NCBI GenBank assembly: GCA_035084275.1
Contig: CM068759.1
Location: 10,044,001-10,108,000, forward strand
Length of the DNA: 64,000 bases
Direction of reading: 5' to 3'
Source: Hydrolagus colliei
Lineage: Eukaryota
Position 1 is the first letter of the stretch, and every line of letters begins with the position of its first letter. Below, one piece after another: positions 6,158 to 29,630 of the stretch. A program made the translations under genes and the position numbers. Under the pieces are notes generated by a model that saw only the letters and a list, made by a program, of their open reading frames with translations, was not told the origin of the DNA and did not search any database.

Positions 6158-6289
6158 CTTGGATCCGTTTTCCTTGGATTCGCTTTCCTTTTGCTCTGGG
6201 GTGGGCTCCGATTCTTTGTAAACCACGGCCTTGGTCACGAGCATGTCTGGGTGCTCCTGCTTCACTTCCTTGATCGCAAGAGCCAAAGC
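6158..6289 (-). CDS. EPB41L1: 4.1 CTD exon ([26 protein letters not shown]...NGSK)
   Basis: 132 nt; ctccag acceptor, gtgaag donor; [12 protein letters not shown] matches 4.1N. Confidence 0.95.
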
Positions 6290-7310
6290 CTGGAGTGGAC
6301 AATACATCCCCGGTCAGCCAGGAACCCCCCCCACGAGGTCAGGAATACACATTCCGTCAACTGTGCAACCCATCAGTTTGGTTAGTTGATCATTAAGGAA
6401 CTGGGGAGTAGATTAATGATTTATTTTTTTCCAATAAAAGGGATTCAACGGCCTGTGATTCAGAGTAAGACCCTCTGCCCCCGCCCCCCACCTCCCCCCC
6501 TTACACCCTCTGCCTCACCATCGGAGGTCGTGCTTTCAGTAAAGACCTGCATACAACCCAAGAGTTGTAAATAGCATTCCTTCCGTTTTGTCGTGCGGAA
6601 ATGCACACTCACTACACTCCGTGGTAAACACGGTGAAGCCCTTTTGAGACGTCCTCCTAATGCGAAAGGCGCTAAAATCAAGCATTGGCATTGCAATGAT
6701 TTAGGATGGCAAATGTTTTGCTGTTCGGTGCATAAGAGGTTGGTCAGACATGATTTAATGTTCAAATGTGTGTTCCTTTGAGCTGCAAAGTCAATTTTGT
6801 ATTGTTGGAATTCCATATAGCCTTTGTGTGAATTAAAACTATTGTACAAAAGCAATGCTGATTTATAGACAGTGGTACAGTAAATGCACTGTCTAAAGCT
6901 TTGAAGCTTCTGAGGAGTAAGCTATTCAGCCCCTCGATTCTGTTAGATCACGGCTGATCTGTACCTCAACTTCAACTTATATCATGTATTCAGTGTCTGA
7001 CGTTCTGGATATAAGTGTGTAGCAGGCGTTTCTAACTCCCTTTGTGTACCCTGCGTCTCGCACCCCCCTGCCCCCCATCTGTCTTTAAATCCTGCCAAAA
7101 ACCTAACCCTTCAACCGCGTCTCAGATCACGCTGCCCCTCCCGTGCTCGGCACCTGACCCTGTCTTGGGACGTCCTCCCGACGTGAAAGGCGCTATATAA
7201 ATGTAAATTGTTGTTGTTGTTGTCTTGGTGACGCGCTCCGGGCCCGTTAGCACTAAACGAACGCAACGAGATCCTGGAAGAGATTCACTCTGAGAAACCC
7301 GGCCCCTTAC

Positions 7311-7391
7311 CTGGTCCTGGTCAACGTCTGCGTCTCCTGTGATGATGATTCTTTTCTCAATTCTTGTTTCCGAGAAGCCCCCTTTCACTGA
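7311..7391 (-). CDS. EPB41L1: 4.1 CTD exon ([27 protein letters not shown])
   Basis: 81 nt; attcag acceptor, gtaagg donor; CTD signature. Confidence 0.97.
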
Positions 7392-8108
7392 CTGAATGCA
7401 CAACAAAGTCAGTTTGTTAATGGCTGTTTAAAGTGGACGGCAAATTAAATCTGAACGTATAGGTTATTCCAATCATTGAGCGCTTCTTGGTGCAATTCCA
7501 ATGTGACGTTTACTACAATCACCCAGCTTAACTGAACATAATTGCTACTTAAAGAGAGAAAGCTCAGTCTGATGGATCCATTGCAGAAACTGTGTAATTG
7601 TCCTAAAGTCTTTTTATCAGATGGAAGGATGATTATTACAATACAAAACTCGCATACATCTTATCTCCTAACTCAAAAAGCTGCTGCCCTACCATCCATT
7701 ACTCCCACTTACCAGACGGCTGCTCTGAATCGCAGTAATGTTTATTAGTTACAGCGAAGCGAGAATTCGTATGGCTGATCAACTGACAGCATAAAATATT
7801 AAATGATCAGAAAAGGTCGCTCCATGACCCCGTCTTCCCCATCCTCGCCCGACTCTATTGGCACCCCATCACCCAGAAGATCCAATTCAAGATCCTGGTC
7901 TTTACATTGAAAGCCCTCCATGGCCTGGCCCACACTAACTCTGCGACCTCCTAACCCCCTATCAACCTACTCAGCCTCCCCACTGCAGCAGGCTCTCCCC
8001 TGACCCACTCACCCATCTTGCCATCAGCCATCGATCCCGCTTTACCTGGCGCTCTCAACAATGAAGTGCATGCTCAACGCGATCTACGTTGTGGACGCAG
8101 GCTCTCAC

Positions 8109-8207
8109 CTTGGTGATGTGTGTGGTAGTTGATGTAGAGATGGTTTCCGAAGTGACAGACTGATTGTTAGTTATGGACGCAGGTCCACCTTTACTCTCGC
8201 CGTCAAC
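8109..8207 (-). CDS. EPB41L1: 4.1 CTD exon (VDGESKGG...TSETISTSTTTHITK)
   Basis: 99 nt; cccag acceptor, gtgaga donor; TTTHITK motif. Confidence 0.94.
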
Positions 8208-8699
8208 CTGGGATGCCAAAAAACACATTCACAACTTACAAGCGGGCTCGGGAGCGCAAGCCAACGTAGCTTTAACCTCGTGATTTTTTTAAAAAAAAAC
8301 ACCTTTGTAGCTAGCGTTCAGCAACTTACAGCTGAAGGTGAGGACGCAAATTCCGAGACAACGGTCTGAGAGCTCGAAACAACCTCGGCCGCTGAACTGA
8401 GAACGCTGTTGGCCTGCAGGAACAAACACAAACACAGTTTAAACTGGCCAATTTATATTAACAACATCTTGCACTTATCCAGGACCTTGTACATAGGAAA
8501 CCAACATAACCAACAACAACTTTGATTTACATAGAGGCGTCTCAGAGCGCTTCACAACAACTGATCCCAGGGGAGGGGCAGGGGGAGAAAGGTGACCGAA
8601 AGCGCGGACGGAAGAGAAAGTCTTTAGCAGAGACCTGCAACTAGGAAGTGAGGGGCGGGTGAGGCGAACAGAGTGAGGAAGGGAGTTCCAGAGCGCTTC

Positions 8700-8804
8700 A
8701 ATAAAAAACAGAAGTTGCTGGGAACACACACACAGTACGTCAAGCAGCATCTATGGAGAGAGGAAAACGAGGAAACGTTTCAGGTCGATGACGTTCGCCT
8801 GACT
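8700..8804 (-). mobile_element. Penelope-like element terminal remnant
   Basis: gcagcatctatggagag...aacgtttcaggtcgatgac resembles the shark PLE terminal repeat as recalled; a related fragment lies at 63930-64000. Confidence 0.55.
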
Positions 8805-9214
8805 GACACACAAGTGCGAGCTCGAGCAGGGATGGAAGTTTGGAGGGTGGATTGAGGGGACGGGAGGGGATTGGGGAGGTGACCAAAGGCGCAATCAAAG
8901 AGATTGTTTTTTTAAGGATTAAGGAATTGAAATTGGAGAGAGTGGGTGCAATCCCGGAGGAGATTTAAAGAGAGAGCACCAGAGAACAGGGCAAAGTGGC
9001 TGAATACTCACCTACTGATGGTCGAGGAGGATGGGGGGAGGAAAGGGTATAAAAACATAAGAAATGCTAGACGAAAAAAGACAAAGGTCCAAAGTTTGGC
9101 TTCCACCTTCCTGGTGGTTGCGTGCACATATGTCCCAAACTACCTATGTACTCTATATATATATATATATATATATATCCCATAATGTTATTTCCTAAAA
9201 GAAAAATAACAGCA

Positions 9215-9640
9215 ACAAAATAAATAAATAACATTTGTGTGGCACCTTTCACGTCGGGAGGACATCCCAAGGTGCTGGATAGTCAGGTTTCGGACCTCAG
9301 CTGGGGTCGGGATCGAGGAGGGTGTGACCAATGGCACAGTTGAAGGAGGGTCTTGAGGCGGGACTTGAAGGAGGCGAGGGAGGGGGTGAGGTCGAGGGAT
9401 TGTGGGAATGGAAATCCAAAGGTTGGGAGCAGAGTGGCTGCAGGGGCGGGTGGATCGGGGGGGCAAGGAAAGGCCGGAGCCCGCTGAGCGGAGGGAGCAG
9501 ACAGGTTGAGTTGGGAGTTTGTGGAGTAGTGAGGGGGGGGGGGGGCAAGGCCATGGAGGGCTTTGAAAGTGAGGAGAAGGAGCTTGAATTGAATCCTCTG
9601 TGTGATGGGAAGCCAGTGGAGATAGGCGAGTATTGTGGGG
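9215..9640 (-). mobile_element. LINE L2-clade 3' fragment
   Basis: ORF track LAYLHWLPITQRIQFKLLLLTFKALHGLAP, followed by the 3' tail. Confidence 0.85.
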
Positions 9641-10020
9641 TGGAATATAAGAACATAAATGCTAGAGGAAAAGGAAGGGAGGGAGTGGGGGACGGAAGTG
9701 GTGGGGGGCAATGTCTAGCAGTGGCAGGATGATCATTAACTCTAAACATAGTGCAAGTTGAAAATTAAGGGTTGTATTTTTCCAAATTCTGGATGCGACC
9801 AAAATGTTTCACAAATACAACTATAACAATAAAAAGTTACATTTGTATTGTTATATTTTAGCGCCTTTCACGTCGGGAATACTCAAACTTGAGGCAGAAT
9901 TCCGCCCTCACCCCCATACCAACCACTCTGCGAGTGTGAGTGTTTGTGTGTGAGTGTGAGCATGTGTGAGACTGTATGCGTGACGTTTTCTGAAAACAAG
10001 CAAAAAAAACACCCGAGCAC

Positions 10021-10140
10021 CTGTGTGGCCGTCACAGTGGTTTTGGTCTCTGATGCTAAAGACGTTTCTTCCTTTGGGGAAACTTCAGACTTCACAGACT
10101 GGACATCACTCGCGGGAATAGTTACCGGTTTCCTGGCAGG
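10021..10140 (-). CDS. EPB41L1: 4.1N exon, 120 nt (PARKPVTIPASDV...TVTATQ)
   Basis: ctcttgcag acceptor, CAG|gtgctc donor; positional homolog of human PVKTET...DNTQ. Confidence 0.8.
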
Positions 10141-11282
10141 CTGCAAGAGAAGGAGACACCAACCTTTCAAATTCATTCGTCCTTATACAAGGGGATCACT
10201 GGCCCCAAATTCCACCTAGCCTTAGAGCGTAAGATCATTTGGTCATACAACTGAAGGTTCCACAGAATTGACGAAAATTCCTGAATCCATTGATAAACCA
10301 ATCTGTGTGAAATACAGTCAATCTGCTTCATAGGACATTCTATGAAGCGCTTTGAGAGGCCTCAAGGGTGTGATAAGGCGCTATATTAAATGCACAAATT
10401 ATTATTATCATCGTCATTTATATTTCTGCAGCGCCTTTCGGGTCAGGGGCACGTCTCAAAGTGCTTCACCTGGGAAACTTAATTTGGAGCTTAATTTGTA
10501 AGAGCTTTTCAAGAGTTCCGGGCAGATCCGAATTTCAAGGCTCGGTGCAATTTGGGAGCTGTGATTAACATTCTGTTCACGGCAACATCCCGCAGTCAGA
10601 GAGAAAGCTTCATTTGGGGAATAAACAACACAGACATAAGATGTCAACAGGCGACAATCAACGTTCATGCAGACATTGTTTTTGGCAATGAATAATCCAG
10701 CAGTAATCTCTTAAGGGAGCTACATGCAATAATTAAAGTGACTTGTATTCTCAAACCTTCGGTTTATATAATATTCAGACCCAAAAAAATCACAGAAACC
10801 TTAGCATTATATGTTAATAGCATTTTAACAGTAAAATTATGTAAAATTCCTTATTGAAGTACTGCATGGAGCTCCTTTAACTGAAACATTCCCGGCTGAA
10901 AGCAAAATGCCTTCTTTAGCAAACCATTCGGTGGAGCGCGTGTGAGGAATGGATTAGTACTTGAGCAAACGCTCTTGAAACAAAAATACATTGACATTAA
11001 GAAGGTGCCTCATTAACTGGCACATAATGTAACACAGACAGACACTTTTTACACTCAATTAGAGGAAAGCAAGCATGCTCTTGAGAGGCAATTAATGAAG
11101 AACATCAAGTAATAATTGGCAGGAGGGCAGCTTGCCCTAATTCATGAATGTATTAGTCAACCTGATCTGCAGTCTGGTTTAGGGAATGGTGGGGATGCAG
11201 AGGTTATGGTTTTACACACAAAGGGAAAGTTGAAAACACAGGTGACATGGACAATCACTAGGTGGGAGGGGGGAGATTTTAC

Positions 11283-11717
11283 CTCAAAGTGAGGTTTTTC
11301 TTGAGACTCTTCAGATAAATGGTCAATGGTTTTAAGTTGGTTCTCCCTTTGTGTTTGAGGAGATTGGCTTTCAGGACTTGAGGAAGGCAGATAACTGTCA
11401 ATGGCTTCCACTGTGTCACTGCCTAGCCCCTCTTTATCATCCTCTCTAGTTTGGGTTGGTTTCTTCTTCTGCACCTTCTCCTCCTCCTCCAGGACTATCT
11501 TACTGTCTCCCGCTTTCCCCGGTACTTTGAGATCTTCCTCAGCTTCCTCATGGGCTGTGGAGGCTGCGGGGACGCCTGTATGTTTATGGTCTCCCTGTGC
11601 GTGCAGCTCCTTTGTCAGGGTCTCTGGAGCACGTTCCTTCGTCTGTTCCACCGTCTCTACCACGTCTTGTTTGGCTGAAATAGGTCTCTCCTCTAAGTCC
11701 TGCTTTGTTTCAGTGCT
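11283..11717 (-). CDS. EPB41L1: 4.1N U3 exon, 435 nt (STETKQDLEE...EKPHFE)
   Basis: ttgctcag acceptor, GAG|gtaaaa donor; ends PHFE, like human PQFE. Confidence 0.8.
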
Positions 11718-12550
11718 CTGAGCAAGAAAGAACTGCGAGTATTAAGGCAGAAGGAATGAAACGCATTAGGAGTGGAATGGGATTAAGATGGATGTGTGCG
11801 TGTGTGCAAGAGGGAGGGAGGGCAAAATAGTGGAATTGGGTGAAAGTAAGGATGAACGTTTTTCAGAATGATCAATGCTCATGGGTAGGATGAAGAAATG
11901 GAAGGAAAACTAAAATCTAAACAACTCTGACCATTGTGAAATAACCAACCTGGGGTTTTCTAGATTCTTCACTGCACTTTTTACGTGGAGATGTAGGCTC
12001 CTGCAAATGAACCAAAAGTACTTGTGATTAAGCGGTCGTGTCTTGCAATCAAACAAAGAACATCTGCTCCCCCGAACAAATGAAATGAACACAACAGGGA
12101 GTTTGATATAACAGCTTTCACACGGACTGAAAGGCATTTTCTATGAATAATACGAGTACTAGGGAACGGCGATGTATCGGTTTTTCGATTAAACCCGATA
12201 TGATTTTCAGATCGGTATGCCGATATGGTGATTCTAAAAAAAACGTTATATCGAGAGATTCGATTTTAAAAATATACATCGTTATATTTTTAATATCGCT
12301 CCTGGCAATATATCAATATTGTTGGTATTATCAGTGTTATGCGATCTTTTCCAGCTTACCTTGTCGCCGGCATTGCAATCTCCTAGACTTAGAGCATGGA
12401 ATGCGCGTACATTCGGTGCGCGCGCACAATTAACGGGCGCGCACATCCGATGCGCGCGCACACTTTACTGTGTATACTCGACGTGAGTCGTGGCGTCTTA
12501 ACAAAGTCGCATCGCTGAAAATTGTAGTTTGAAAATTTACCTTTCTCATC

Positions 12551-12985
12551 ATGGGGAAAAGAAGCCCCGTATGGGACTACTTTGAAAACAATGCAGTCAG
12601 TAATGGTGTGTATAGATGTACAGTTTGCAAGGTCTTGGTTAAGACATCTGATTCGAGCACGAGCAACCTGCGACAACACATTAAGCAGCACCAGCCCGCC
12701 CAGCACACTGCCCTCAGAGCGAAATTATTGTCGACAACAGCAGGAAGTCGAACCAGCGCTTCGGAGAAAGCGACAGGTAGTGGGGCCAGTGCAGCTCAAA
12801 CAATTCCTGCTTTATTTAAGAGGAGAACATTGTACCAGAGAGGGGACAAAAAGTGGCAAAGTATCACGAACGCTGTCACTTTTTGCATAGCAAAGGAGAG
12901 CTTGCCAATGGCGATTGTTGAGACGCTTGGGTTTAAGCAACTCCTAAACTAACTGGACCCCAGGTACAAACCACATAGCGAAGGA
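12551..12985 (+). pseudogene. Truncated hAT transposase, BED zinc finger and N-terminal domain
   Basis: SPVWDYF...CTVC...TSNLRQHIKQHQP BED motif; IAKESLPMAIVETLGFKQLLN*LDPRY has an in-frame stop; no catalytic domain seen. Confidence 0.88.
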
Positions 12986-13288
12986 CATTAATTCAGACTA
13001 CATAAAAATAAGTGGCATTTTGTGGCTGTAAGTGTTATTTTTGTGTGTGAGAGAGTTAGAAGCCAGATTATCACTGCTGTGTGTGTCTGACTAGACACAC
13101 ACATAGAAGCAGTGATAATCTGGCTTCTAACTCTAACAGTCAGACTGACTGTCTCTCTCTTTTCTATTGTAATAGATCTCATTTACACGTGGACATTACA
13201 TGCTAGTTTCAAGCAAGAAATGGAGGAGAATAAATCTCTAGATTTTGTTTTTGGTGTGTGTGTGTTCTATTTTGTGTTTAGAGATGGA

Positions 13289-13860
13289 GTGAGAGAAGGA
13301 GAGGGGGAAAGTTGGGAGAGAAGGAGAGAGGAAGAGAGGAGAGGGAGGGAGAGAATGAGAGGGGGAAAGGAGGGAGAGAAGGAGCGAGGGAGGGAGGGAG
13401 AGAAGGAGAGGGGGAAAGTTGGGAGAGAAGGAGAGAGGAAGAGAGGAGAGAGGAAGAGAGGAGAGGGAGGGAGGGAGAGAAGGAGAGGGGGAAAGGAGGG
13501 AGAGAAGGAGCGAGGGGAAAGGAGGGAGAGAAGGAGAGAGGGGAGGGAGGGAGAGGGGGAAAGTTGGGAGAGAAGGAGAGAGGAAGAGAGGAGAGGGAGG
13601 GAGAGAAGGAGAGGGGGAAAGGAGGGAGAGAAGGAGCGAGGGGANNNNNNNNNNNNNNNNNNNNNNNNNNNNNNNNNNNNNNNNNNNNNNNNNNNNNNNN
13701 NNNNNNNNNNNNNNNNNNNNNNNNNNNNNNNNNNNNNNNNNNNNNNNNNNNNNNNNNNNNNNNNNNNNNNNNNNNNNNNNNNNNNNNNNNNNNNNNNNNN
13801 NNNNNNNNNNNNNNNNNNNNNNNAGAAGGAGAGAGGAGAGGAGGGAGAGGAGAGGGGGAG
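13289..13860 (+). repeat. Polypurine composite minisatellite spanning an assembly gap (N 13645-13823)
   Basis: Repeated gagaaggagagggggaaag and ggagggagagaaggag units. Confidence 0.9.
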
Positions 13861-14589
13861 GTAGGGAGCAAACAACATCGTATAATTCAACAGACCTTGA
13901 CACCAACATTTCAAACTTTCTGGACCTAGAGCACGCATTTCGAAATGTGCGTGCACCGCGACTGCGCGCACATCGTCAGTGCACGCGCACTTCGAATGCA
14001 CGCGCATGCGCAGTATAAAAACTCGATAGATCGGTTTAAGCAGGTATGAGCAACCCGATATATCCATATCCGGAAAAATCCCATATCGCCGTTCCCTAAC
14101 GAGTACTAATAAAATAATATAGTTGCGTTTGATGTTAACGCCTTCACATCAGAAGGATGCCTCAAAGCAACCATAGGAATTTACTGTAAAGTGTAAAGAT
14201 ATTGTATAGTTTTCATATTTAGACGAAAGCAGGGATTCAACAGATGTTCTTTCTAGCCCCCAAGCCTTGGCTCTGGTCAAACTGCGCCTGGTACGTTCGA
14301 GAATGAGGTAACCAGGATTCAACCCTCCAGGGAGAGAGTGCGCCCACAATCTATCTCTGGGGTTTCCATGTGAAGGTGGGGATGCATGCAAACCTTTGGG
14401 GTTTGGATACTCCTAAGCACGGTGATGGATTTCCACATATGTCAGACACCAGGTGGGTGACCAAAACAACAACAACAACAACAACAACAAAACGATTTCT
14501 AGTGCAAAAGGATAAAATATCAGTGCTATGGAATGTTATGCGGATTGTGGTTCAATTCAGAGATGAAAAGTTTATCAAGACTTAAACAC

Positions 14590-14724
14590 CTGTGTGGCAT
14601 TGACTGAAGCAGAAGCAGCATCTAATCTGTCTTTCATTGGCGATTTCCTCGGAGATTTTGAAGTCTCCTGCGGGGGCTTCACCTCCCCGTCTTCCAAGGC
14701 ACAATCGTGGGCGGCAGCTTTAGT
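14590..14724 (-). CDS. EPB41L1: Candidate 135-nt exon (TKAAAHDCALEDGEVKPP...NATQ)
   Basis: Branch point gactaat, pyrimidine tract, ttag acceptor; CAG|gtgttt donor; open phase 0. Confidence 0.65.
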
Positions 14725-15424
14725 CTAAGTAGAAAAGGGCATTAGTCAGACGCTGAAATGAAGGGAGGCAGAACGCATGGCTTTAAAATGGAATAGCAAC
14801 AAACATTCTGGCAGCGAGCTTCACAGCAAACGGTGGAAAGTCAGCCATTAGTAATTGTGTCAGCCATTAGTAATCTTGTTGACAGGCATGATTACGCTGA
14901 AAGGAAGGAGAACAGTGAAAGAGAAGGTGGGGGAAGAGAGGGGAAAAGAGAAAAAATAAGCCGTAGAAAGCAAAGGAAATGGGGTAGGGGCCCGGGGGTG
15001 GGGGTATAGAAGCCAAAGACTTTCACTTTTCTGAGCACCAAAATGCAACTTTCTAGCAATGCAGGAAAAGCGTAGACACTCCCAGAGGTTCGTGGAGACA
15101 CTTTCAACAGCTGCCTGGTCAGTCTGTTCCCATTGCTGCCAAAGCTACATTTGGCTCGATCGGTTTCCGTTTTGCAGTCGTAAACAAACTCCAAAAAGGT
15201 CCAAACAAAACACGCAAAAGGAATGCAAATCAACGGCGAGGATCAAACAAACCCTCTGCGTTTTAGCGAATGCACACGGAGTAACAAAAACACAAAGTAG
15301 CAACTTGGAAACAAACTTTGCTTTCAAGCTGTTGGAAAGCTTGGAGGATGATGTAAAGACAAAATACAACTCGGACAAAACATGCTGCGACAACAACGTG
15401 TTGTTTCCTTGCAGGAAGAGTTAC

Positions 15425-17953
15425 CACTGCTTCGGTCAACTCCACTTCGCAGCCCGAGTCTGGCGATCCCACCTCGGTGAAGTGTGTGGAGACCTCGGTG
15501 GCTTTGAATGGCTTTTTGGGGAACGTGTTCTCGCCCAGTTTCAACTCAAAGTAGGATATCTTATCCTTGAGCGTGGCTGAACCCATGTCGTAGGCCCCTG
15601 CGTCCAACTGCCTCTCTTTACGCTTGGTCGAGGAGAGAGATCCGCCTGACTCGTCCCCCGGGCTCAGAGACTCCGTGCTGGGCCTGACTCCGGATGCCTC
15701 CTTCTTAGGTTTCAGGGCCTCCGGTTTCGAGGGTCTCTCGGGTGACCCTTTCTTCATGCCTAGCCACTCAAGTTCCGAGGGTCTAACTGGCTTAGCTCCT
15801 TCGTCGCCAGCCGCGCATGGTTTTGACCGCGGCGGTGATGCCACTTCGGCTGCCAGTGGCAACTCGGACCCATCGGGCCCTGATTTAAGGGCTGAACCTT
15901 GTTGCTCGAAGCTCTCCAGCACAGGTTGGGATCCGGGTTCACTTTTGCCCTGCGCAGGGAACAACCGATCTCGGGGTTTCTCGGGAGATTGTTTCTCGGA
16001 AACAAGGACATCGCCTTCAGGTAAGTCCTGAGATTTTGCCGAGGCTGAAGTAGACTGCGAGTCTTGACAAGGCAATGGTTTAGATTCGTCTGCACCGCGC
16101 TCTCTCTCAGTCTCCCGGATCATCGATTCAACCCAGCCGTTGTCATCATCGCCGTGGGAAACCCCTCCGCACTTCTTGCGGTCCTCTGGTGAAGGGGCTC
16201 TGGACTTACCTCTGTCCTGTCCTGAAGGTGGCGACTTGAATTCCTTTCTGCCCTGGTCTGGTGAGCACGGCTTTGGCTCTTTGGCCAGGGTAGGTGACTT
16301 TGCTACTTTGTCCTGCTCTGGGAAACGCAGCTTAACCTCTTTTCCAACATCCACCAGGAAGCACGGCTCTGACTCTCTCACGAGGGAGAAGGGTTGCAGC
16401 TCTTTCCCTTCACCCCCTACGGAGCAAGGGCGTTGCTTTTTCCCATCCCCTCCTATGTAGAAAAGCTGCAGGTCTTTCTCATCACCACCTAAGGAGTAAG
16501 GGCGCTGCTTTTTTCCCTCCCTTCCCGGAGAGCAAAACCATTGGTCTTTTTCATCGCTTCCTGAGGTTACCAGCGGTGTTTGCTTTTCCCGATCTTGGCC
16601 ATCAAGAAAGCATTCAGCGATGTAGGCTTCAATATCATCGAACCGAGAAATTCCTTTATCCTCATCTCTTTCACCGACGCTTTGCGGCTCATCCATAGCC
16701 ACTGGCGAATCGAGTTTGGATTCGACCTTTCCTTCGTCTTCTGAGATGGGTGTGGAGTCCTTGTGCCTCGCTGGTTTAGCTCCTTCCCCACGTTCTTCCC
16801 CTGGGCAAGTTGGTTCAGGTTCCCTCTCAGCATCCGACTCGGAATCAACCTCAGAAATCACAACCTGAATTGGAGTAAACTTTTGGTGTCTCTTTGGGGA
16901 ATCCGTCTCCATTTCTTCATGCTTCCCTTGGTCATTCATTGAGGAATCGATCTTGCTTTCTGGGTATCTCTCTTGATCATCCGCTGAGGATCTCATCTTG
17001 GTTTTCACATGTTTCTCTGGTTCATCCATCGGGGAATGTGTCTCGATTTCTTCGTGCTTCTCTCGGTCATCCATTGAGGAACTTGTGTCGGTTCCTGTCT
17101 GTTTCCCTGGATCATCCATTGGTGAATCTGTCTTTACGTCTTGCTTACCTAAACGAGAGTCTGTCGTCTCCTTCTGATCAGCCATTGGAGAAATGGGTTC
17201 AAATTCTTGGCCATCAACCTTTCTGAAACCTTGGCTGGAATCTCTTTGATCATCCTCTTGGAAAACTACGCTGGACTTAGTTTCATCCTCCACCGGGGAA
17301 GTAAATTGAGGTTCCTCCATTACGCTGTCTGGCAAGAGTTTGGTTAATGCAAATCCTGGCTTGAAAGAGCCTGACTCTGAATCGTTTTGAGGTTCAGCTA
17401 AGGCTTCTTTACTGTCTTTTGTCGAAACCTGTACAAATGAAGATAAAATGGTAATGGACTCGTGAACAGTTCGCTTATTTGTCGAGCTCAACGACTCTCG
17501 ATCGAAACGATCAGCGGGTGCTATGTTCTCAGGGTCAGTGGGTGCTATGTCCTCGGGGTCAGTGGGCTCCTCTGGGCTCAGAGTTATTGCTCGTTCCTTG
17601 GCCGTTGCCACCACCACCGTCCGATGTTCACTCTTGACCGGAAGAGTTGCCGTGCCGTCTGCCATGTCCTCTGAGCCAACAGTTTCAGAAGCTTCTTCTT
17701 GTTCGACTGCTGTTTGAACCCCAAAGGCATCCTCGGTTGCTGAAGGTGTCTCTCCGAGCGACTCGTCCCTTGGAATCCATCCTTCGGTGAATTCCAACCC
17801 GGTGGAAGAATACTCTAATGGCGGAATCTGGTTGTCGTCATCTTCCGGAGTTCTGTCTTCCAGGGATTCTCTTCTGCCACTTTTCATTTGATCTACAACT
17901 AGTTCTTCTAGCCTAGAAGCTTGACTTTCTATTATAACCCATTCCTCAGAGCC
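15425..17953 (-). CDS. EPB41L1: Giant acidic low-complexity exon, ~843 aa (GSEEWVIIE...ELTEAV)
   Basis: 874-aa ORF in the track extends in frame to a tgtag acceptor (AG at 17954-17955); donor GTG|gtaact at 15425, alternative GAG|gtggga at 15473; phase 0/0. Confidence 0.8.
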
Positions 17954-18471
17954 CTACATTTCAAATATAGAAACTTGTCAACGTTACAGTATTGTAAGAG
18001 CAGGCACACAGCATGCAGTTCCCTCACATATTTTGCTCTCTTTTTTAAGGGCAACCAAGAGGCAAAACACGTGGATAAAATGTGCATCCGAGACTGTATT
18101 GAAATTAGCTTACTGAACTGCAGCATGCACAGCGATTGCTAGTTATAGTAAGTACACTGCGTTAAACGCTATCGATAATCGCTCGATCAAACCTTTAGTT
18201 TAATATGCCAACTTATGATTGAAGCTCTAGCCTTATGTGTTCTGCGATTTCTCTTTGTAAGTTGTTAAATATTATTTAACCCCCCCCCCTCCCACCCTCC
18301 AAAACAAAATCAACACCCGAGTTAAAAAGAAAAGGATCGTTTGCTATCAATTATTGTTCCGCAACTCTTGCATGAAACCACTCTTAACGTCATCCAATAG
18401 TTTTATTTTATTCTAATTTAGACCGAATTACAGGGCTAACAAGCGTGTAAACTGAAGAAATAAAGGTCAAC

Positions 18472-18579
18472 CTCAGGGGAAGAAGCAAGGCTTTCCTGTG
18501 CAGCATCTTCCACAGATAAGGCAATAGCGCACACATGAGAAGCCGGCTCTTCTCTCATCTCCTCTTCAGCGCCCGCAGG
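18472..18579 (-). CDS. EPB41L1: Candidate 108-nt cassette exon (PAGAEEEMREEPASHV...SSPE)
   Basis: Good acceptor gctaattaacctttctaacag; open phase-0 frame; weak donor GAG|gttgac. Confidence 0.5.
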
Positions 18580-21500
18580 CTGTTAGAAAGGTTAATTAGC
18601 TGACATACCAGAACGCATCACACAATAAACAAACAATAGAAGTGTTAGCTTCCTCCTTGTGGTTTCCATTATTATTCCCCCACCCCACCCAGAGGATTCT
18701 TTGTCGGTTTAGAAAATCCAAAGCTGAAATACATGCTCGCGTGTTGCTACACACACCACCATAATCACTTAAGAACGCACCGACCTCTTTATTGATCCTG
18801 GCTGTTTACACAATGCCAAATACTTTATACTCCAGAGTTTGGGAAACTCAGTCCTTTTGTCTATAGCTGGAGCGTGTTGCTTTTGTATTTTATTCAGCCT
18901 GCGGGCAATGATCTAAATTTGTACCATGTCTGCATTAGCCACGGGCTGTGGAAGTACGTGGTGAGAGGAACAATGTGCAGCAGCAAAAAATGGATTGGTA
19001 GTGTAAAGTCAGTGCAAATGGGTGAGAGTAGGTTTAAACTGATCTCTGTCGCTGGCCTCAAGTCGGAAATAATCCTGTTCCAACTAAAGAAGGCTGGCTG
19101 CAACTGCTAGGCCAAGATCTCTCTACATATGTTTGCATATGTCTACGTTTCATTACCATATTCCAAGGGCAGGCACACAGCAGCCTCCATGCAGTTAGCT
19201 CACTATGTTCCACTCTTTACATGGACGTGTAATTGCTACAGTGAATATATGTTAAAAGCAACCAGGAAAGAAACGTGTGGATAAAATGTGCGTCTGAGGT
19301 TGTGCTGAAATACAATAATGCCCAAACAAAATAGCGATAATCAAGATCTCTTTAAAAGGAACTTTTTTTTTTTAAGTCTACTTTAGTCCATCTCCGCTTC
19401 CTACTTTACACATGCAATACTGTACTGCATAACAGAATGACAGATTAAAGTGTTGCATCAGTGTGTTGCATTAAACTTACCCAAAGAGTAGGGTGACCGA
19501 TCCGAGCTGGACTAGCAGCCGGAATCTTGTGTTTTCAATGGCAAGCAAATTATTTTGTTTCTTTATAAAAATGCTGGTTAAACTCCAGCATTACCTGGAG
19601 TTACCTCCAGCGCACACTTTGGATCTCACCAATTTGTGCTCAGTACTCAATAAGTGGAATTATGTAAGGGGGAGAGAGAATGCGCATAGCATTCCAGACA
19701 CAGGAATGTCCATGTGCAGGTAGCAGACTGGAACTCTCAGTCTAGTTTGGATACTCTGAAGCATTGGTGATGAATTTCCCATGTCAAGTCACTCAGCTGA
19801 CTAAAAGTAAACGCAGCGCTTCATTTACCAATCGAATATGCTTTCGCCGCCTGCAAGGGAGGCTATTTTCAGTCTTGGAACTCGATTTTATCAAAATGGG
19901 TGAAGGGGGGCTGAGCGGATTCACTGGGACTCAAACCCACAACCTCCATGTCCTAAATCCAACGCACAAACAATTGAGCTACTCCAATTGGAAGAAAGGG
20001 AGCTTTTGGAACAAACACACTGACACAAATTTTGTGTTTCTTTCCCTCACTTGTTATGTTATAGTCAATAATATTGCTGATTTGTTTGTTTTACTAGTAC
20101 TGTACTATAATAATATATATATACACATATGTATTACACATACATACACGCACACAGAGTACACATTCATTCAGCAGGTTGTGTTTTATGCAAAATACCC
20201 TGAAGAAGACATAGGAAGATTACAGGATACAATAAATATGCTAAGAATGCAATCAAATCTAGGCAACCCCACCCCATGCTCGAAACCAAGGGGGTGAAAA
20301 CTGCAAAGTGTAATTGTGATATCATCTAACACCAACTGCGAAAATATAATTGACCGGGCTGGTCAATGACTGGACACTGTAGAGACCACAGGTGTGATAC
20401 AGGTGATATAGGTGTTATCGCCCTCCCACTCTTTCCTCCATCCCCAACTTTGTCACAATGGTTAGACGCAGAGCTGCCTTGTGGTTTGCAGCATCAGAAT
20501 GCCAGGTAGTTGGGATACCATGTTATTAACACAACAACAAAATAAAAACAAACGGAGCAAAGTCAAGTAATCCCTGAATCGGCAGTCCAATGGTACAATC
20601 CGTGTCCGAAATGCACAGCTCAGCTTCAAAACGCACGGCCCGACCACTCTGTGTCAGGGAACTGGGGGTGTCACACACGCCAACCTGCCAATGTGTCCCT
20701 GTTGCCAACGGCTGCAATTTCCAGCGATGTGGTAATTGACATTGGCATAAATTAACACAACACAAAACATGCACACGAAGACTAGGGGCATGATCTACCC
20801 GCTGGCGGGGAGTTAATATTCTAATTCCCACGGTTTTATCAGGCCCGAATGTGATTAGGAGAACAAAAGCAATCTATCGGTTTATTCGACCGTGCCTTCA
20901 GCCGCCTTCCTACATCGCTGCCCTGCCCCCCTCCCCCCACCACCACGCTCGAGTCCTGACCCCCGACTGTTCAGCGTGTTGAAACATCCGCCCGACGTGA
21001 AAGGCGCTCTACATATGTAATTTTGTGGTTGTTGTTGGTTTCAGCAACTGAAACCAACAATTTTGGTGGTTGAGATGAAGAGGAAAGGAAGGCACATTAT
21101 ACAGAACATCGCGCAGGGGTGTGAGAAGGTGGAATTATCAGGTGTACTTAGTGATATGTTCTGGCTGATTTCCACCATCATGTTGTCTGATCTCCCCACG
21201 TCAAGTGGAGTAGAGTAATGAATGACGCACTGCAGTGTGCAACTTGGAAGCATTATACTGCACTAAAAGCTACAATGAGCTTGGATTAACAGCAGGTGGC
21301 ATCAGGGCATTCAAACCCTCCATTTGGACATCCTGGGCTGCAGTTAGTCACTGCTGAAGCAGTCTGGCCTGGCATTAAAATGACACTCACAGAAAAAAAT
21401 AACCTGCAAATGGTATTACTGTCACGCAAGGGACAGACAGAAAGTGCTGTATTCACTGCGGGCATATGAGATTTGAGAGCTTTAACACAATGCGTACGGT

Positions 21501-21644
21501 CCACTGTTCTTTACCGAGAAGAGCAGAACGCCACAAATGGCTGAGCGAGTCATGAGCAAGGTTTTTGACGCACACAGTGCCGCACAAGCGTACCCGGAGG
21601 TACTTTGGCAATTACTCATAGGAATGGGCCTGCTGAATGACCAG

Positions 21645-21908
21645 ATTGTAATTGTGGGTGAAACACAGCAGCCAATTTGCATGCGCACAGCAGTGTTCCA
21701 CTGACCAGATTTGTTTTTGTAAGGACTGGCACCCCTGAAAAGTATTATACCAAACAACGAACAACCGGGTTCCTAATTACTGCTCGGCCAACAGAGGTGT
21801 GTGTGTGGAGAATGAATATTTGCTTAAAGTTTCTACACCACCCGGGAATCGAACCCAGGTACTCTCTCTCGCGAGGCAAGCGTGCAAACCACTGCACTGA
21901 GGAAGCAG
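21645..21908 (-). mobile_element. Divergent SINE subfamily (tRNA head, ggaacccggttgtt segment, Deu domain)
   Basis: Head GCTTCCTCAGTGCAGTGG...GGTTCGATTCCC; a related copy lies at about 41434-41790. Confidence 0.65.
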
Positions 21909-22183
21909 CGGCGAAATCTCAAACGTACTTTTGACTGTGTGCACAAAAATCACGCGTCCAAAACACATGGCACTTTTGCTCACGATGCACAGAATCAGCA
22001 GAGGGGACATTCCAGTTGTGAACCCGACACCGACTTGACAACCCCCGGTTAGATCAACGCTAAAACTAGAAATATAACCAGCACCAACAAACTGACAATC
22101 AAACGGATCACCATGAACGATGCCCAGGATGCCAGCCCAACTGTGCCTGCAACTTCTAAGATGCGTTCGTGAACAAAACTCAC

Positions 22184-22375
22184 CTCTTTGGCCTTCTCGT
22201 TCTCTGCCTGATCTTTGGGTTTGGTTTTCGCAGTGGATGAAGTGGGAGAGGTGGTGAGCTTCTTGTCCCTGTCGCCGTGGCCTAACTTAATACTCGTGGA
22301 TTCTTGCAAAGTCCGTTTAAGTTCGTTTATATTGGCCTGGTGCTTCATCAGTACGTCCTCGGGTTTATCCAGGAA
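22184..22375 (-). CDS. EPB41L1: 4.1N SAB-like exon ([23 protein letters not shown]...KAKE)
   Basis: 192 nt; aag acceptor, gtgagt donor; KHQAxINELKR motif. Confidence 0.93.
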
Positions 22376-23507
22376 CTTTGGCAAAATTGAAAGAGAAATA
22401 TATCCGTGAAAAATTATGTCGGAAGCGACAATGCACAAGCACAACATACATCCCCTAATCTATTTAGCAGTGCAATAATATTAATGATAAACCTCGTATT
22501 TGATATTGAACCTTTCACGGCAGGAGGAGGTCTCAAAACGCTTCGCAGGATGTGCTGTAACGTGTAAGGCGCTCTATAAATGTAAATTGTTGTTGTTGTT
22601 GTTGTGACTGTATATTTTGCAGACAAACGCAACCGAATTGGGCACAGCAATGCGCCACAAACAGCCGTGAAGTGAATGAGCTATTTTATCTGAGGGAATA
22701 TTAGCCATGGGGTCGTTAACATCAACCTGGACAGGCCTCCGTTTGTTCACATCTCATCCGAAGGAAGGCACCTCCGACCGACTGCTCCCCCAAACCCAAC
22801 ACCTTGTGGGATTGTCAGACGAAACAATAGGGGTTCCAAGTTCTGACATCGGGTTTGAACCCACAACTTTACCATTCAGAGGCGAGAGTGAGCCAGGATT
22901 CGAGAGGCTGTTCAAACATGGTTATATCTTTATATTTCAGAAAACAAGAAAACAAGGCAGAAAACAAAACTGAGATGCAGCAACTTCGAGTGCTGTGAAA
23001 CCACCCCACATTTGCAATGTGAGGGAATCGTGTGTGTGTGTGTGTGTATGTGTGAAAAATCTTCATTACTATTCAAATGATTCAATATTAAACATTTATC
23101 AATAACAAGGTATTCAGTGGTGGAATAACATGAAGCAGAATATTATCACCCACTCTCCTGCACCCAACAAAAAGAATCCCAATCTTCGAATAACATTGTT
23201 TCTTGCAGAACGCTAATATTTCATTTTGAATTACAATTTAACATAAGAAGTGAGCAGTAGGAACCCTAAATTGCGCCAGAGATTTCAATCTGTTATTGGA
23301 TTAGTGGAGGATATGAGTTGGAATCTCTCAGAATGGACCTATTTCTGTTCAGTGACCTGTGCTCATCTACACTTTGAATCAGACCTACCATTGCCTTGCC
23401 TATCTTACAGCTGAAATAATACTTTTAAAGACAGATATGATTATAAAGTCACAGAATTACAATCAACATGAAGAAAAACAGCTCGCGCCGGCCGGTCTGT
23501 ACACTAC

Positions 23508-23543
23508 CTCAAGCCTAACTTTCGGTTCATCTTCATTTTCCAT
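23508..23543 (-). CDS. EPB41L1: Candidate 36-nt mini-exon (MENEDEPKVRLE)
   Basis: tgtcag acceptor, GAG|gtagtg donor, phase 0/0; same length and position as the recalled human segment PEQETTPRHKQE. Confidence 0.7.
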
Positions 23544-25170
23544 CTGACAGCAGAATTTTAAGAAAAGTGGAAGTCAATTAAATCCAAGACAGTAATAGTC
23601 ACAGTTTATCGACGCTTGTGCGAAAGCAATGAAACAAGCACGACAGAACTGAAGTGTGAAGTGTTCGGAAGAAATCAAATTCTACAGCGATGAATTAATG
23701 GAGACACAGTCGAGCTTCCATCCTGGCGCTGGATATGGCGCTGGCAATTTGCAATTAATGAGAATGATTGCAAAGCAGTGTGTGCAATTTGTCTGTGGGG
23801 TTAATGCTTTCGGCTTGGAATGCATTACGACTGACTTTCACAGAAGCTCAATGCTTTCAACTTAATTCAGAGAACGAGTGAGTCCTTTTCCGAGCAATAG
23901 GATCTTCCTTTAGTCTTTGTTCTCCTGTTTTTTCATGCAGCGCCTTCCTTTAGTAAACGAGAAAGGCCCTGCCCATCTGTAAACCTGCACAGAGTCACGA
24001 GTATTAATGCCGAGCTAGGTTTCAGCTGACGTTTGAAGGGATTGATCTGCCAGCAGATGTTGTCCTACCTCTGTAGGTGCTCTACACTCATCAACTCGTT
24101 TTCCAAGAAATACTGAGTTGTACGGTAATGATATTTATAATCCCTGCACTTGATATAGCGCTTTTCACATCTTTATCGACGTCTCAAAGCACTTCACAGA
24201 ATATAATGTAAAGTGAATTGACTGTATATTTGTGGGTGAAACGTGGCAGCCAATTGCGCACAACAGTGTCCCACAAACAGTTGTGGATGGAAAATGACAA
24301 TTTTTATTATTGTAGGGGTTTTTTTGGGACGGATTATAATTTCAACAACAACTTGCATTTTTCTGACAGCCTTTTATGCAGAGCAGGGTCCTGGAGCGCT
24401 TGGCAATGACGGAGTCTGATCTCGAGCTAGGGATTGTGGTGGGGGGGTGTGGAGAGGAGAGGTGACTGCAGACACAAATCAGGAAGGAAGGTCTTTTGGT
24501 GGGAATTGAACCATGGGTGAGATGGGGCAAGGAGGAGGGATTGAGGGAGAGAGTTCCAGAGTTTGGGGGCGTATCGTGGCTGAAGGCACAGCCATCAATG
24601 GAGGAGCAGAGTGGACCAGGGACAAAACAGGAGGCTGGAGCCAGGTGTCGGAGAGGGAGAGGGGGAGGGGAGGGGAGGTCAGCAAATTGTATATAGGTAG
24701 CAGTGGATTTGAAAAATTTGGGGGAAGAAGGAGAGGTTGAAGCGGACACAATCTCTTGACCTGTCTGTACAAAGTGCTACCTACCTATGCACCAAGGGGT
24801 CCATTTAATTATACCAACAGCATCGAGACCTTGAATAGGTCCAGTGGAATGTCACTGTGATGAATGCCCTCGGGAGCGGCAGAAAAGATTGTTACATCGG
24901 AGTGTTTTCAGCGCTTTGGGACGTCCTCCCGACGTGAAAGATGCTCTATAAATGTATTGTTGTTGTTCACTATATCAGGGTTTGGTCAAAGAGGTGAAAA
25001 AATCGCTTCTTGCCATTAAAACCAGGGGTTTATTATAAGCGGGGGTCCATATAGTGAGGTTCGACTGCAATTTTGATGGACAATGCAAAGAAGCAGAGAA
25101 AAAATAAGATCTACAGAGATAGAGGCATTCTCGGACTAACACCAGTCATCATTCCGCTTTACATAATATA

Positions 25171-25488
25171 ATAATACTGATAATCCTTACATTTGATATA
25201 TCGCTCTTCACATCTTATCAATGTCTCAAAGCGCTTCACAGAATATACTGTAAAGTGAATTGACTGTATATTTATGGCACAACGCAGCAGCCAATTGCGC
25301 ACAGCAGTGTCCCACACACAGTCGTGGATTGAAATGACCAATTTTTTTTTATCATTCCATTTTTTGGGGGGAGGGATTATTATTAGGCGTGTGGAGTAAG
25401 GAACTTGCCCGAGGTTTCACCCCGACCTGCCTGGATTCAAACACAGGTCTCACGCTTGTAAGGCGAGTGCTCTAACCACTGAGCTACA
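25171..25488 (-). mobile_element. Same SINE family, near full length
   Basis: Reverse complement of the 5590-5922 consensus. Confidence 0.88.
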
Positions 25489-25529
25489 TATAATCACATC
25501 AAGACGTACAAAACTGCAGCCTGCTGTAC

Positions 25530-25714
25530 CTTCAGCTCCTTAATTTTGGTCGGGGTGGTTACTTCATCTCCTCTGTCCGACTTCTGGGAGGATTTCTTAC
25601 TGTCGGACTGCGGTGTGACGGGGGTGTCTGTCCGGGACGCCTCGCTGGTATCTTTCTCCGAATCCTTCAGCAGAGCGTCGTGGTTCTCACCGACCGAAGC
25701 TGGACGGAAAAACT
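25530..25714 (-). CDS. EPB41L1: 4.1N U2 exon (EFFRPASVGENHDA...TPTKIKELK)
   Basis: 185 nt; ttgcag acceptor, gtacag donor; ends match human RPASVSENHDA and TPTKIKELK. Confidence 0.93.
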
Positions 25715-27492
25715 CTGCAAGTCACAATATCCGACATAAAATGTGTCTGCTGTGTGCCCCCAGCAGTAACTTACACCGAGCAACGGGAAGAGGATGTCAA
25801 TCAGACAAGTGACAAGCATGGACCCAAGCTGGGAGTCAGGGTCAGGAAGGGTGGAGGGCAGGTGGGGCGATGGTGGGAGGGCGGCCGAAGGCACGGTCGA
25901 AGAGGAAGGTCTTTAGACGGGGCTTGAAGGAGGCAAGAGAGGGAGTGAGGCATAGAATAGAATACATGCATAGAATATAAACTATTTCACAATTTAGACT
26001 TGTATGATTTATGCCAATCACAGTTATGCGAGTTTTCCTGAAGTACTTTGAAGACACTGGGAGCCACTTGTTCTGAGCCTGTAAGGCTTCTCTGTGTTCA
26101 CCTTTAAGACTGAGCTGACCTATGGAAATTTCTTTAGCTGAAGACTGGTATGCTGATAGAATGGGGTGAAGTGGGTGGGGCAGTTAGGGGCGTGAAGCAG
26201 ACACAATAGACGAGGCAATCGAGTGGCAGAGGCGGGATGCGTTTGACGGTGAAGATGAGGATCGTAAAAATGGATTGAAAACCTTCCAATCAACCCTAGG
26301 CCCCTTCATTGAATCCTTTCCAATATTTCAAAGCCGTTTCAAAGGCAGAATGACCAAAGCCACGAGCAACAACTGAGCTATAGCCTCTTTCAAAATGCCC
26401 TTCGTTAACCTTGTGAACATCAGTGCATTGCAAAGTCTCCAAGTGCAACAACAACCTTCTCACTGTTATTGCCTTTAAAGAAACCTCTATGAAGCCAGGA
26501 CATATCCAAGTTGAATACCATTGTCGTGAGTTATGTATTAAGAATACATCTGTTACATAAGTTCCTGGCAGTACTGCTATGGATTAATGGGAACGTGGTA
26601 ACATTAGTCCTTTCAGATGTTAAAAGTGTACGTTTCCAGCAGGGAGCAATAAAGCCTCCAGTGTTCATAATCCAACGGGATTTACATACAAACCCTCTTG
26701 TTTCTACAAACACTCTCTCGCATATTTCTAATGTAACCCAGCGCAATAAAATAAGCAGCTGATCTACACAATGAATAATGTACTCCAACACTTCAGGCAA
26801 AACATTCATCTTCCCCACATCCTCTTCCCCCACCCACCACTTCTGCTCCTTTTGCTAACAAACTTTTACGTGAATTTCATTCACCGCGTTCACGGGAAGG
26901 GCACAATGTGTAGCATCGTAACTCTGGATACTTCGCTGTGACAATGGCACTTTAAACATCTGATAGAAGTTAAAAAGGGATGTTAAAGCACTTTCTAAAC
27001 CATGAGCGAAATACATTAAGGATTCGCCCGTGGCTCTGCACATTCTGAGCTGTTCATGCTACAGTTCGGAACGAATCCTCTTGACTTGTGGTGGTTTAGG
27101 GTCCAAAATAATCAGACTCTAGAGTTGTTATAGTGGGCCCAATTATAAACATTCCCCTCGAGCGGCAAGCTCGGAATTTGTTGACTTTGTTAATGGCGGA
27201 TGATTGCAAAGTCGCATATTGCTGCACCGACCTTCTCACTGTAATTGTCAGACCTTCTGATTTCGACTGATTCCACTCCGACAGTTGGACTTGGATTGCA
27301 AAGGATACAAGATGCATTTAAGAGGAAGCAAGAAACACACACGAGGGATACGGGAATAGGAGGGTACGGGAGGGAGTAGGGACTGGGTGCAGACACATGT
27401 GGAATGCAAACACAAGAACAGGCAATTTGGGCCTAAACACCCTGCTTCAGTGCTGTAAATTCTAGGCAAATTTGATACAATCAAAACCATAC

Positions 27493-27668
27493 CTCCATCG
27501 AGACTCCGTGACATTGTGTATCGTTTGCTTGAGGATCGTTCAAAATAGGGTGCTGGGCGATCAATTAATGCGCTGGCTTGTCTGGTTTGAGCCTGTGTAC
27601 GACCACTATAGCGAAACTTGGAGCCCATGACGAGGAATCCCTTTGGCGGGGGCTCGGGGGACACCAGT
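27493..27668 (-). CDS. EPB41L1: 4.1N FERM-adjacent exon ([27 protein letters not shown]...SRSLDG)
   Basis: 176 nt; tttcag acceptor, gtatgg donor; [15 protein letters not shown] matches 4.1N. Confidence 0.97.
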
Positions 27669-27927
27669 CTGAAAGGAGAGGAACAGTTTGTACAGAAAAC
27701 TGCCTGCCAGGGAACAAGGATGAAAGTACAGGAAACTCTGGCTCAAATTGTCATAACCACCTTAAGTCATCACGTTATCCCAACTGCATTTATTTATGCA
27801 TTTACACGTCTGACTAACCCGACAATGAGCTGTCACTGAACCCTTTTCCCTGGGAGTGGCTTGAGGATTTTACTTAACTTGTGCAACCAAACACAACAGG
27901 TGTTGGGCAGGGCTCCAGGTGAGGCTA

Positions 27928-28165
27928 AAAGCGCTTCACAGAATATACTGTAAAGTGAATTTGCTGTTCATTTGTGGGTGAAACCCGGCAGCCAATTGCA
28001 CATAGTGGTGTCCCACAAACAGTCGTGGATTGAAATGACCAAATTATTTTCTTTTCAAGGGATTATTATCAGGCTTGTGGAGCAAGGAAACTTACCCAAG
28101 GTTTCGTCCCGCCTGGAATCGAACCCAGGTCTCATCCTACCTGGAATCGAACCCAGGTATCTTGC
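27928..28165 (-). mobile_element. Same SINE family, truncated, abutting an exon donor
   Basis: Deu domain plus duplicated B-box cctggaatcgaacccagg. Confidence 0.8.
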
Positions 28166-28168
28166 TTA

Positions 28169-28288
<120 letters not shown>

Positions 28289-29150: not shown

Positions 29151-29435
29151 GGAGTCCCGTAGCTCAGTGGTTAGCACACTCGCCTTGCAAGCGAGAGACC
29201 TGGGTTCAAGGTTTTAGAACGAAACCTTGGGCAAGTTTCCTTTCTCCACCCGCTCGATAATAATCCCTCACAAAAAACGATAATAAATTCAATCCACGAC
29301 CATTTGTTGGATACCGCTGTGCGCAATTGGCTGCCATGTTTCGCCCACAAATGTAGTCAATTCACTCTACAGCATGCTTTGTGAAACGCTTTGAGACATC
29401 TAGAAGACGTGAAAAGCGCTATGTCAAATGCAAGG
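29151..29435 (+). mobile_element. Same SINE family
   Basis: tRNA head, Deu domain and tail. Confidence 0.85.
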
Positions 29436-29611: not shown

Positions 29612-29630
29612 TGACCAGTAGAGGTCACTA
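29612..29630 (+). promoter_or_regulatory. CTCF-like motif
   Basis: TGACCAGTAGAGGTCACTA resembles the CTCF core. Confidence 0.4.

What the first reader, a model, noticed from the sequence alone, without database searches (positions are those of the whole stretch)
15425..17953. Giant 2.5-kb exon in 4.1N, reminiscent of giant ankyrins
Seen: 843 open codons, acidic and probably disordered, free of transposons, with in-phase splice sites; it would almost double the protein. Recalled and needing verification: a ~1550-aa long 4.1N isoform exists in rat brain. Established: ankyrin-B and ankyrin-G use vertebrate giant exons in neurons. Inference: a giant-exon strategy in a second spectrin-skeleton adaptor, dating at least to the jawed-vertebrate ancestor.
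Basis: partly seen in the sequence, partly recalled or inferred. Interest (0 to 1): 0.7.

Follow-up and report, generated by a model that had tools for sequence, protein, structure and literature searches.

The report
Conserved long exon of protein 4.1N
This 2.5-kb open stretch is the counterpart of the exon that lengthens the already catalogued long form of the scaffold protein 4.1N; its ends are kept from cartilaginous fish to mammals, and it likely acts as a floppy spacer carrying a predicted GABARAP-binding and a predicted actin-binding motif, as giant ankyrin exons do.

Summary
The ORF is real: 843 codons, minus strand, AG/GT sites at 17953 and 15425, both phase 0, inside an EPB41L1 (4.1N) gene after the SAB exon. 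It is not new as an exon: the curated rat isoform L (NP_067713.2, 1551 aa) and database models of sharks, rays, a chimaera, amphibians, reptiles, birds and mammals carry a segment with the same ends; bony fish keep the start. The middle is acidic, predicted disordered and varies from about 400 to 1470 aa. Three short motifs survive: a LIR-like W-V-x-[ILV] at the start (236 of 237 long models, seeded searches), an F-actin SFM-like motif (154 of 155 chondrichthyan and amniote models, absent elsewhere), and SPDSGC at the end. The ANK2 and ANK3 giant exons of the same genome (1969 and 2656 codons) carry the same two motif classes; the other three 4.1 genes have no such exon. Binding, splicing in this species and neuronal specificity are untested: no RNA run was listed and the complex predictor was unavailable. 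A known but little-studied isoform, now with a testable mechanism.

The parts
15425..17953 (-). Long internal coding exon of EPB41L1/4.1N (U3 region), 843 codons, phase 0-0
   Evidence: same boundaries in sawfish and Callorhinchus models
17927..17953 (-). LIR-like motif GSEEWVIIE (core W-V-I-I, residues 5-8), predicted Atg8/GABARAP or FIP200 site
   Evidence: consensus from PMC5538626 abstract and PMC7615515 passages
15545..15571 (-). SFM-like motif LKDKISYFE (residues 795-803), predicted F-actin site
   Evidence: motif table of PMC13364712
15425..15466 (-). Conserved 3' end SPDSGCEVELTEAV; role unexplained (degron-like DSG, recalled)
16894..17121 (-). Degenerate 45-nt (15-aa) repeats inside the exon
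16385..16555 (-). Degenerate 36-nt (12-aa) repeats; 13 regular copies of the like unit in the sawfish
18472..18579 (-). Upstream 108-nt phase 0-0 cassette exon ending ...SSPE; supplies the residues before the LIR-like core
   Evidence: skipped in one Callorhinchus model (P0299)
14590..14724 (-). Downstream 135-nt phase 0-0 exon (TKAAAHD...)
22184..22375 (-). SAB exon of the host gene, ends ...KAKE, phase 0
18012..18129 (-). Two TGCATG hexamers (RBFOX-type, recalled) 64 and 176 nt upstream of the acceptor
   Evidence: 2 in the 518-nt intron, 21 on that strand of the whole window
6158..53617 (-). Host gene EPB41L1/4.1N, first coding exon to CTD exon
   Evidence: tblastn of sawfish and rat proteins; splice sites

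Best explanation
The stretch is an in-frame coding exon of the 4.1N gene, matching at both ends the insert of the curated rat isoform L, and it likely works as an optionally included disordered spacer that holds the FERM and C-terminal domains apart while presenting a predicted Atg8/GABARAP-binding motif at its start and a predicted F-actin-binding motif near its end. Shown: open frame, splice sites, phases, conserved ends, free length change of the middle. Inferred: inclusion is regulated (all neighbouring U3 exons are phase 0-0, so skipping keeps the frame). Predicted, untested: the long isoform would link FERM/CTD-bound receptors to GABARAP-family trafficking with ordinary micromolar LIR affinity (it lacks the +7 acid and helix of ankyrin LIRs) and, in cartilaginous fish and amniotes, would gain the direct actin grip that the 4.1N SAB domain is reported to lack.
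For: Open frame and sites. Same boundaries: of 289 models with the start motif (of 301 proteins read), 288 have Glu before it, reached from two different upstream exons (261 xSPE, 27 SAB-exon ends such as KANE or KAKE), which pins the acceptor. Read-through models of sawshark, quail, Xenopus laevis, sloth and mouse continue with V-T as the window does at GTAACT, which pins the donor. Rat isoform L has start, SFM-like and end motifs. Identity to six elasmobranchs is 0.88 in the first 20 residues, 0.68-0.83 in the last 63 and 0.04-0.40 between. W117 and V118 are invariant in 31 gnathostome sequences. The SFM-like motif lies outside both search seeds yet is in 11 of 11 chondrichthyan and 143 of 144 amniote models; it fits P1/P8/P9 of the published motif, whose table holds entries with Lys or Arg at P4 such as ITPKB, SHROOM3, DENND2C. 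ANK2 and ANK3 giant ORFs of this genome carry W-type LIR-like and SFM-like motifs.
Against: No expression or junction data for this species were obtained. Support for splicing rests on database models, mostly predicted, plus one curated rat record. Short motifs arise by chance: 3.5% of composition shuffles of the exon hold a LIR-like and 21% an SFM-like pattern, so only conservation argues for them. The LIR tally is biased because both searches were seeded on that region, and models are not independent (many isoforms per species). The SFM-like motif is absent from 24 of 24 amphibian, 1 of 1 lungfish and 57 of 57 ray-finned models apart from one off-site match, and a chondrichthyan profile did not ring on the amniote site, so it may be two origins. 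P4 is Lys where the published consensus has Leu. Mammals have His at -1 of the LIR-like core. Direct window-to-rat BLASTP matches only the two ends, each at E about 0.03. Six newer Callorhinchus RefSeq models stop mid-exon after a one-base frame shift, while older models are open.
Confidence: 0.5

Rival explanations
1. Real exon, but a plain spacer: the ends are conserved for splicing signals or phosphorylation, and the LIR-like and SFM-like matches bind nothing.
For: Two of three conserved blocks sit at the splice sites; patterns occur in 3.5% and 21% of shuffles; SFM-like motif missing in amphibians and bony fish.
Against: Conservation is at amino-acid level with conservative exchange (WVII, WVFI, WVLI, WVFV); the SFM-like block lies 40 to over 100 residues inside the exon and is nearly invariant within each clade.
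Confidence: 0.2
2. Real exon whose motifs bind other partners: the start as a FIP200 claw (FIR) or adaptor site, the SFM-like motif as a microtubule site like the ankyrin BG-box, the SPDSGC end as a phosphodegron that sets the isoform's lifetime.
For: The FIR consensus also fits EEWVII (PMC7615515 passage); the ANK2 entry of the SFM table (1990-1998) lies in the BG-box (1984-2017), which bound microtubules (PMC7401806 passages); DSG is kept in 150 of 237 models (degron reading recalled).
Against: His at -1 in tetrapods fits FIR worse; the DSG motif is degenerate in several mammals and turtles and was not found in bony fish.
Confidence: 0.2
3. The exon is used mainly as an alternative last exon: splicing stops, the frame reads 53 codons past the donor to a stop at 15263, giving a 4.1N without its CTD.
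For: Sawshark models (3 of 3), a sloth model and mouse assembly products read through the same donor; the window's read-through tail is hydrophobic like the sawshark's.
Against: No AATAAA/ATTAAA in the 700-nt intron; most models splice on to the CTD (Pfam PF05902); rat isoform L has the CTD.
Confidence: 0.07
4. Chance or decayed ORF in an intron, kept in databases by annotation transfer.
For: Weak acceptor; six newer Callorhinchus models are frame-shifted mid-exon.
Against: P about 1e-17.6; open in all major jawed-vertebrate groups; curated rat record; 70% identity to the open Callorhinchus model.
Confidence: 0.03

Closest known systems
Rat 4.1N isoform L (NP_067713.2, 1551 aa)
   Same: Same gene, same place after the SAB exon, same start and end motifs, SFM-like motif present.
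   Different: 601-aa segment against 843; middle not alignable; SFM-like motif about 75 residues before the end motif in rat, 35 in the window.
Vertebrate giant ankyrin-B and ankyrin-G exons
   Same: Single large internal exon between folded domains of a membrane-skeleton adaptor, disordered, with a W-type LIR and SFM-like motifs (10.1101/307512, PMC7401806, PMC13364712 Table 3).
   Different: No sequence homology found; 2.5 kb against 5.9 and 8.0 kb here; LIR-like core at the very start and without the +7 Glu and amphipathic helix; neuron-specific use and function not shown.
Short linear F-actin motif (SFM; ITPKA, Lifeact)
   Same: Hydrophobic P1, Phe P8, Glu P9, in a disordered region, conserved amid divergent flanks.
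   Different: Lys at P4; EPB41L1 is not in the paper's text or 4 readable supplements; binding untested.
Paralogues 4.1R, 4.1G, 4.1B of the same genome
   Same: FERM-FA-SAB-CTD layout.
   Different: No acidic ORF over 300 codons between FA and CTD in any of the three; largest acidic ORFs 143-200 codons. Paralogue names are my assignment from sequence and neighbours.

Membership tests
EPB41L1 / 4.1N long-isoform exon | Host gene is the 4.1N orthologue | tested here: met
   Rat 4.1N matches the window better than the three other SAB loci at FERM-M, FA, SAB and CTD; nearest named hit is Callorhinchus band 4.1-like protein 1. No tree was built.
EPB41L1 / 4.1N long-isoform exon | Same position and boundaries as the rat isoform L insert | tested here: met
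   (boundaries in relatives inferred from proteins, not from their DNA)
EPB41L1 / 4.1N long-isoform exon | Spliced into mRNA in this species | not testable with these tools
   No RNA run of this organism was offered
Giant ankyrin exon | Lies in an ANK gene between UPA and death domains; homologous sequence | tested here: not met
   Host is 4.1N; no ankyrin hit or 96
Giant ankyrin exon | Single internal exon of about 6-8 kb, disordered | tested here: not met
   Disordered but 2.5 kb, against 5.9 and 8.0 kb ORFs at the ANK loci
Giant ankyrin exon | Neuron-specific inclusion | not testable with these tools
   No tissue data
LIR/GIM motif | [WFY]-x-x-[ILV] with acidic or phosphorylatable residues before it, in disorder, conserved | tested here: met
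   SPEGSEE-WVII; 236 of 237 by pattern, the remaining one also W-V-F-I; exact GIM W-V-x-V in 24 of 237
LIR/GIM motif | Extended ankyrin-type LIR: Glu at +7 and C-terminal helix | tested here: not met
   +7 is Ala in the window; Glu in both ANK ORFs; feature
LIR/GIM motif | Binds an Atg8 protein through its two pockets | not tested
   Needs ITC or pull-down
SFM actin-filament motif | VxxLxxxFE-type pattern, P1 and P8 essential | tested here: inconclusive
   P1, P8, P9 fit; P4 is Lys, as in several listed members; the authors' matrix and docking step were not run
SFM actin-filament motif | Co-sediments with F-actin | not testable with these tools
   Bench test

The most novel reading that the evidence does not exclude
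4.1N and the giant ankyrins evolved the same device independently in early jawed vertebrates: one large disordered exon that adds both a GABARAP-binding LIR and an F-actin motif to a membrane-skeleton adaptor. The long 4.1N isoform would then be a neuron-enriched link between glutamate-receptor/KCC2 cargo, Atg8-family trafficking and actin, and the only 4.1N form with a direct actin grip.
Probability: 0.25. Interest if true: 0.75.

Novelty: new member of a known kind. Interest (0 to 1): 0.45.

Why it matters
A 2021 review of 4.1N (PMC8473747, passages) names 135- and 100-kDa isoforms and states that its SAB domain binds neither spectrin nor actin; the passages I saw do not mention a 1550-aa form. 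An isoform kept since the jawed-vertebrate ancestor with a candidate actin motif and a candidate GABARAP motif offers a direct, two-point-mutation test of how 4.1N could tie receptors to actin and to trafficking. It also shows why proteome-wide motif screens on canonical isoforms may miss such exons.

Tried and rejected
Sequencing runs: no RNA holder listed. Laying the one listed run gave five 31-nt pieces outside the exon, uninformative. Complex prediction of the LIR-like peptide with a GABARAPL2 protein (alignments) was not available: queue full, nothing folded. ESM Atlas could not read the sequence. PDB sequence searches with the two motif regions: 0 hits each at E 10. Whole-exon homologue search found only 2 of 5019 candidates; seeding on the SAB-plus-start region was needed. 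In one search three rows (pig, two marsupials) were cut at wrong ends, so its tetrapod column is approximate. Chondrichthyan profile against amniote SFM-like sites: no match. dN/dS not run: no DNA of relatives. Jawless fish not tested: none among the 120 of 140 hits listed, no dedicated search. Literature: 10 searches listed no paper on the long exon's function; 4.1N+GABARAP gave 3 papers, one read at passages and unrelated, two seen as listings. Yamakawa 1999 (seen only as a reference), Walensky 1999 and Shen 2000 were not held; most subscription papers are not searched. PMC13534637 supplements: no EPB41L1 in 4 files. Earlier findings of this scan: none. Alternative donor 15473 rejected.

Full report
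Observation. The minus strand holds an 843-codon open frame from 17953 to 15425, the only one above 300 codons among the 85 frames of 100 or more in the window. It starts after ...tgtag and ends before gtaact, both in phase 0. Chance is excluded: log10 P -17.6, longest shuffled ORF 270 codons in 300 shuffles, 35 and 59 stops in the other two frames. The peptide is 21.5% Asp+Glu, on the disordered side of the charge-hydropathy line, has mean pLDDT 40.7 with a 16-row alignment (a shallow alignment lowers pLDDT too) and no Pfam match. It is single-copy in the genome and holds degenerate 45-, 36- and 24-nt repeats.

Host gene. tblastn of a sawfish protein lays FERM, FA, SAB and CTD exons from 53617 to about 6170; rat 4.1N matches this locus better than the other three SAB loci. 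The nearest named protein is Callorhinchus milii 4.1N, 70% identical over the exon, so the window looks like a chimaera (inference). The SAB exon ends at 22184; then come a 108-nt exon (18579-18472), the long exon, and a 135-nt exon (14724-14590), all phase 0-0, so each can be skipped in frame.

Relatives. A search with the whole exon found 2 proteins among 5019 candidates, sawshark and sawfish 4.1N models misnamed 'uncharacterized', 'RSF1-like' or 'titin-like'; the sawfish models have the same first and last residues as the window's exon. Searches seeded on the SAB-plus-start region returned long models from sharks, rays, a chimaera, lungfish, bichirs, teleosts, frogs, turtles, squamates, birds, marsupials and placentals (best 120 of 140; best 120 of 241). 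Segment length from start motif to end motif: 762-1472 aa in 12 of 12 chondrichthyans, 751-1150 in 19 of 20 sauropsids, 398-426 in 24 of 24 amphibians, 503-685 in 103 of 124 mammals (the rest lack a recognisable end motif). In bony fish only the start is recognisable, so a single exon there is not shown. Acceptor and donor positions are fixed by models that reach the same Gly from two different upstream exons and by read-through models that continue with V-T. Against this: six newer Callorhinchus RefSeq models end mid-exon in a tail that matches the shifted frame of the window's repeat, whereas the older 1849-aa model and two UniProt models are open; an assembly error is my inference.

What is conserved. 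Identity to six elasmobranchs is high only in the first 20 and last 63 residues. Three motifs stand out. (1) W-V-x-[ILV] after SPEGSE[EH]: 236 of 237 models by pattern, the last also W-V-F-I. It fits the LIR consensus and is close to the GABARAP-selective GIM (PMC5538626, abstract), and fits the FIR consensus too (PMC7615515, passages). The tally is inflated by seeding and by many isoforms per species. (2) LKDKISYFE in 11 of 11 chondrichthyans and V-A-[SNT]-[KR]-I-x-x-F-E variants in 143 of 144 amniotes, none in 24 amphibians, 1 lungfish, or 57 ray-finned models save one off-site match. It resembles the short actin-filament motif VxxLxxxFE (PMC13364712: passages, sections 7 and 8, parts 1-2 of supplement 2). 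EPB41L1 is absent from that paper's text and 4 readable supplements; one PDF was unreadable and one too large. Homology between the fish and amniote sites was not shown. (3) SPDSGC at the 3' end, 150 of 237 by pattern, unexplained.

Comparison with ankyrins. At the two UPA loci of this genome lie ORFs of 2656 and 1969 codons, which I assign to ANK3 and ANK2. Each has a W-type LIR-like motif with Glu at +7 and SFM-like motifs; one is identical to the human ANK2 entry in the SFM table. The ankyrin-G LIR binds GABARAP at 2.9 nM through that Glu and a helix (10.1101/307512, passages); the 4.1N motif lacks both, so weaker binding is predicted. The ANK2 SFM entry lies in the BG-box, which bound microtubules (PMC7401806, passages), so the partner is open even there. 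The three other 4.1 genes show no comparable exon. So this works like a small giant-ankyrin exon in layout but is not a member of that family.

Mechanism. Most likely a regulated in-frame cassette that inserts a disordered spacer of free length with short binding motifs at fixed places. A review states that the 4.1N SAB domain binds neither spectrin nor actin (PMC8473747, passages), which makes an exon-borne actin motif attractive, but binding, inclusion and tissue are all untested here. Confidence: exon real about 0.95; the full LIR-plus-actin reading about 0.5 at best, with neuron-specific convergence on the ankyrin device about 0.25.

Novelty. The exon and isoform are in public databases and one curated record. 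Ten literature searches listed nothing on its motifs or age, but the original rat paper (Yamakawa 1999, seen only as a reference) and most subscription papers could not be read. Verdict: new member of a known kind; interest 0.45.

Noticed in passing
window 12533-12949 (+): BED zinc finger ORF of 139 codons (Pfam zf-BED, E 6e-7) in the intron after the 14724-14590 exon; likely a hAT-type transposon fragment.
   Followed up: partly
window 11717-11283 (-): A second acidic U3 exon of about 435 nt, conserved in the sawfish model; no convincing Pfam match.
   Followed up: partly
window 15263-15424 (-): The frame reads 53 codons past the donor into a hydrophobic tail that loosely resembles the sawshark read-through tail; possible alternative C-terminus or conserved intronic element.
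   Followed up: partly
host gene U3 region, 14724-8109 (-): The ERKCSSI exon seen in tetrapod, lungfish and many teleost 4.1N proteins was not seen in the chondrichthyan models or in the window's tblastn hits; the U3 exons after the long exon differ between lineages.
   Followed up: no
P0025 (skate model), residues about 1000-1400: The exon has grown to 1472 aa by expansion of a 12-aa repeat.
   Followed up: no
G000:C15:9092645-9084678 and G000:C1:93149054-93143148: Intact giant-exon ORFs of the ANK3- and ANK2-like genes with LIR-like and BG-box/SFM-like motifs; the published SFM candidate and the microtubule-binding BG-box of ankyrin-B are the same residues.
   Followed up: partly
P0003, P0006-P0019 and others: Shark and ray 4.1N long models are auto-named 'remodeling and spacing factor 1-like', 'titin-like' or 'band 4.1-like protein 3' because of the acidic insert.
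   Followed up: yes
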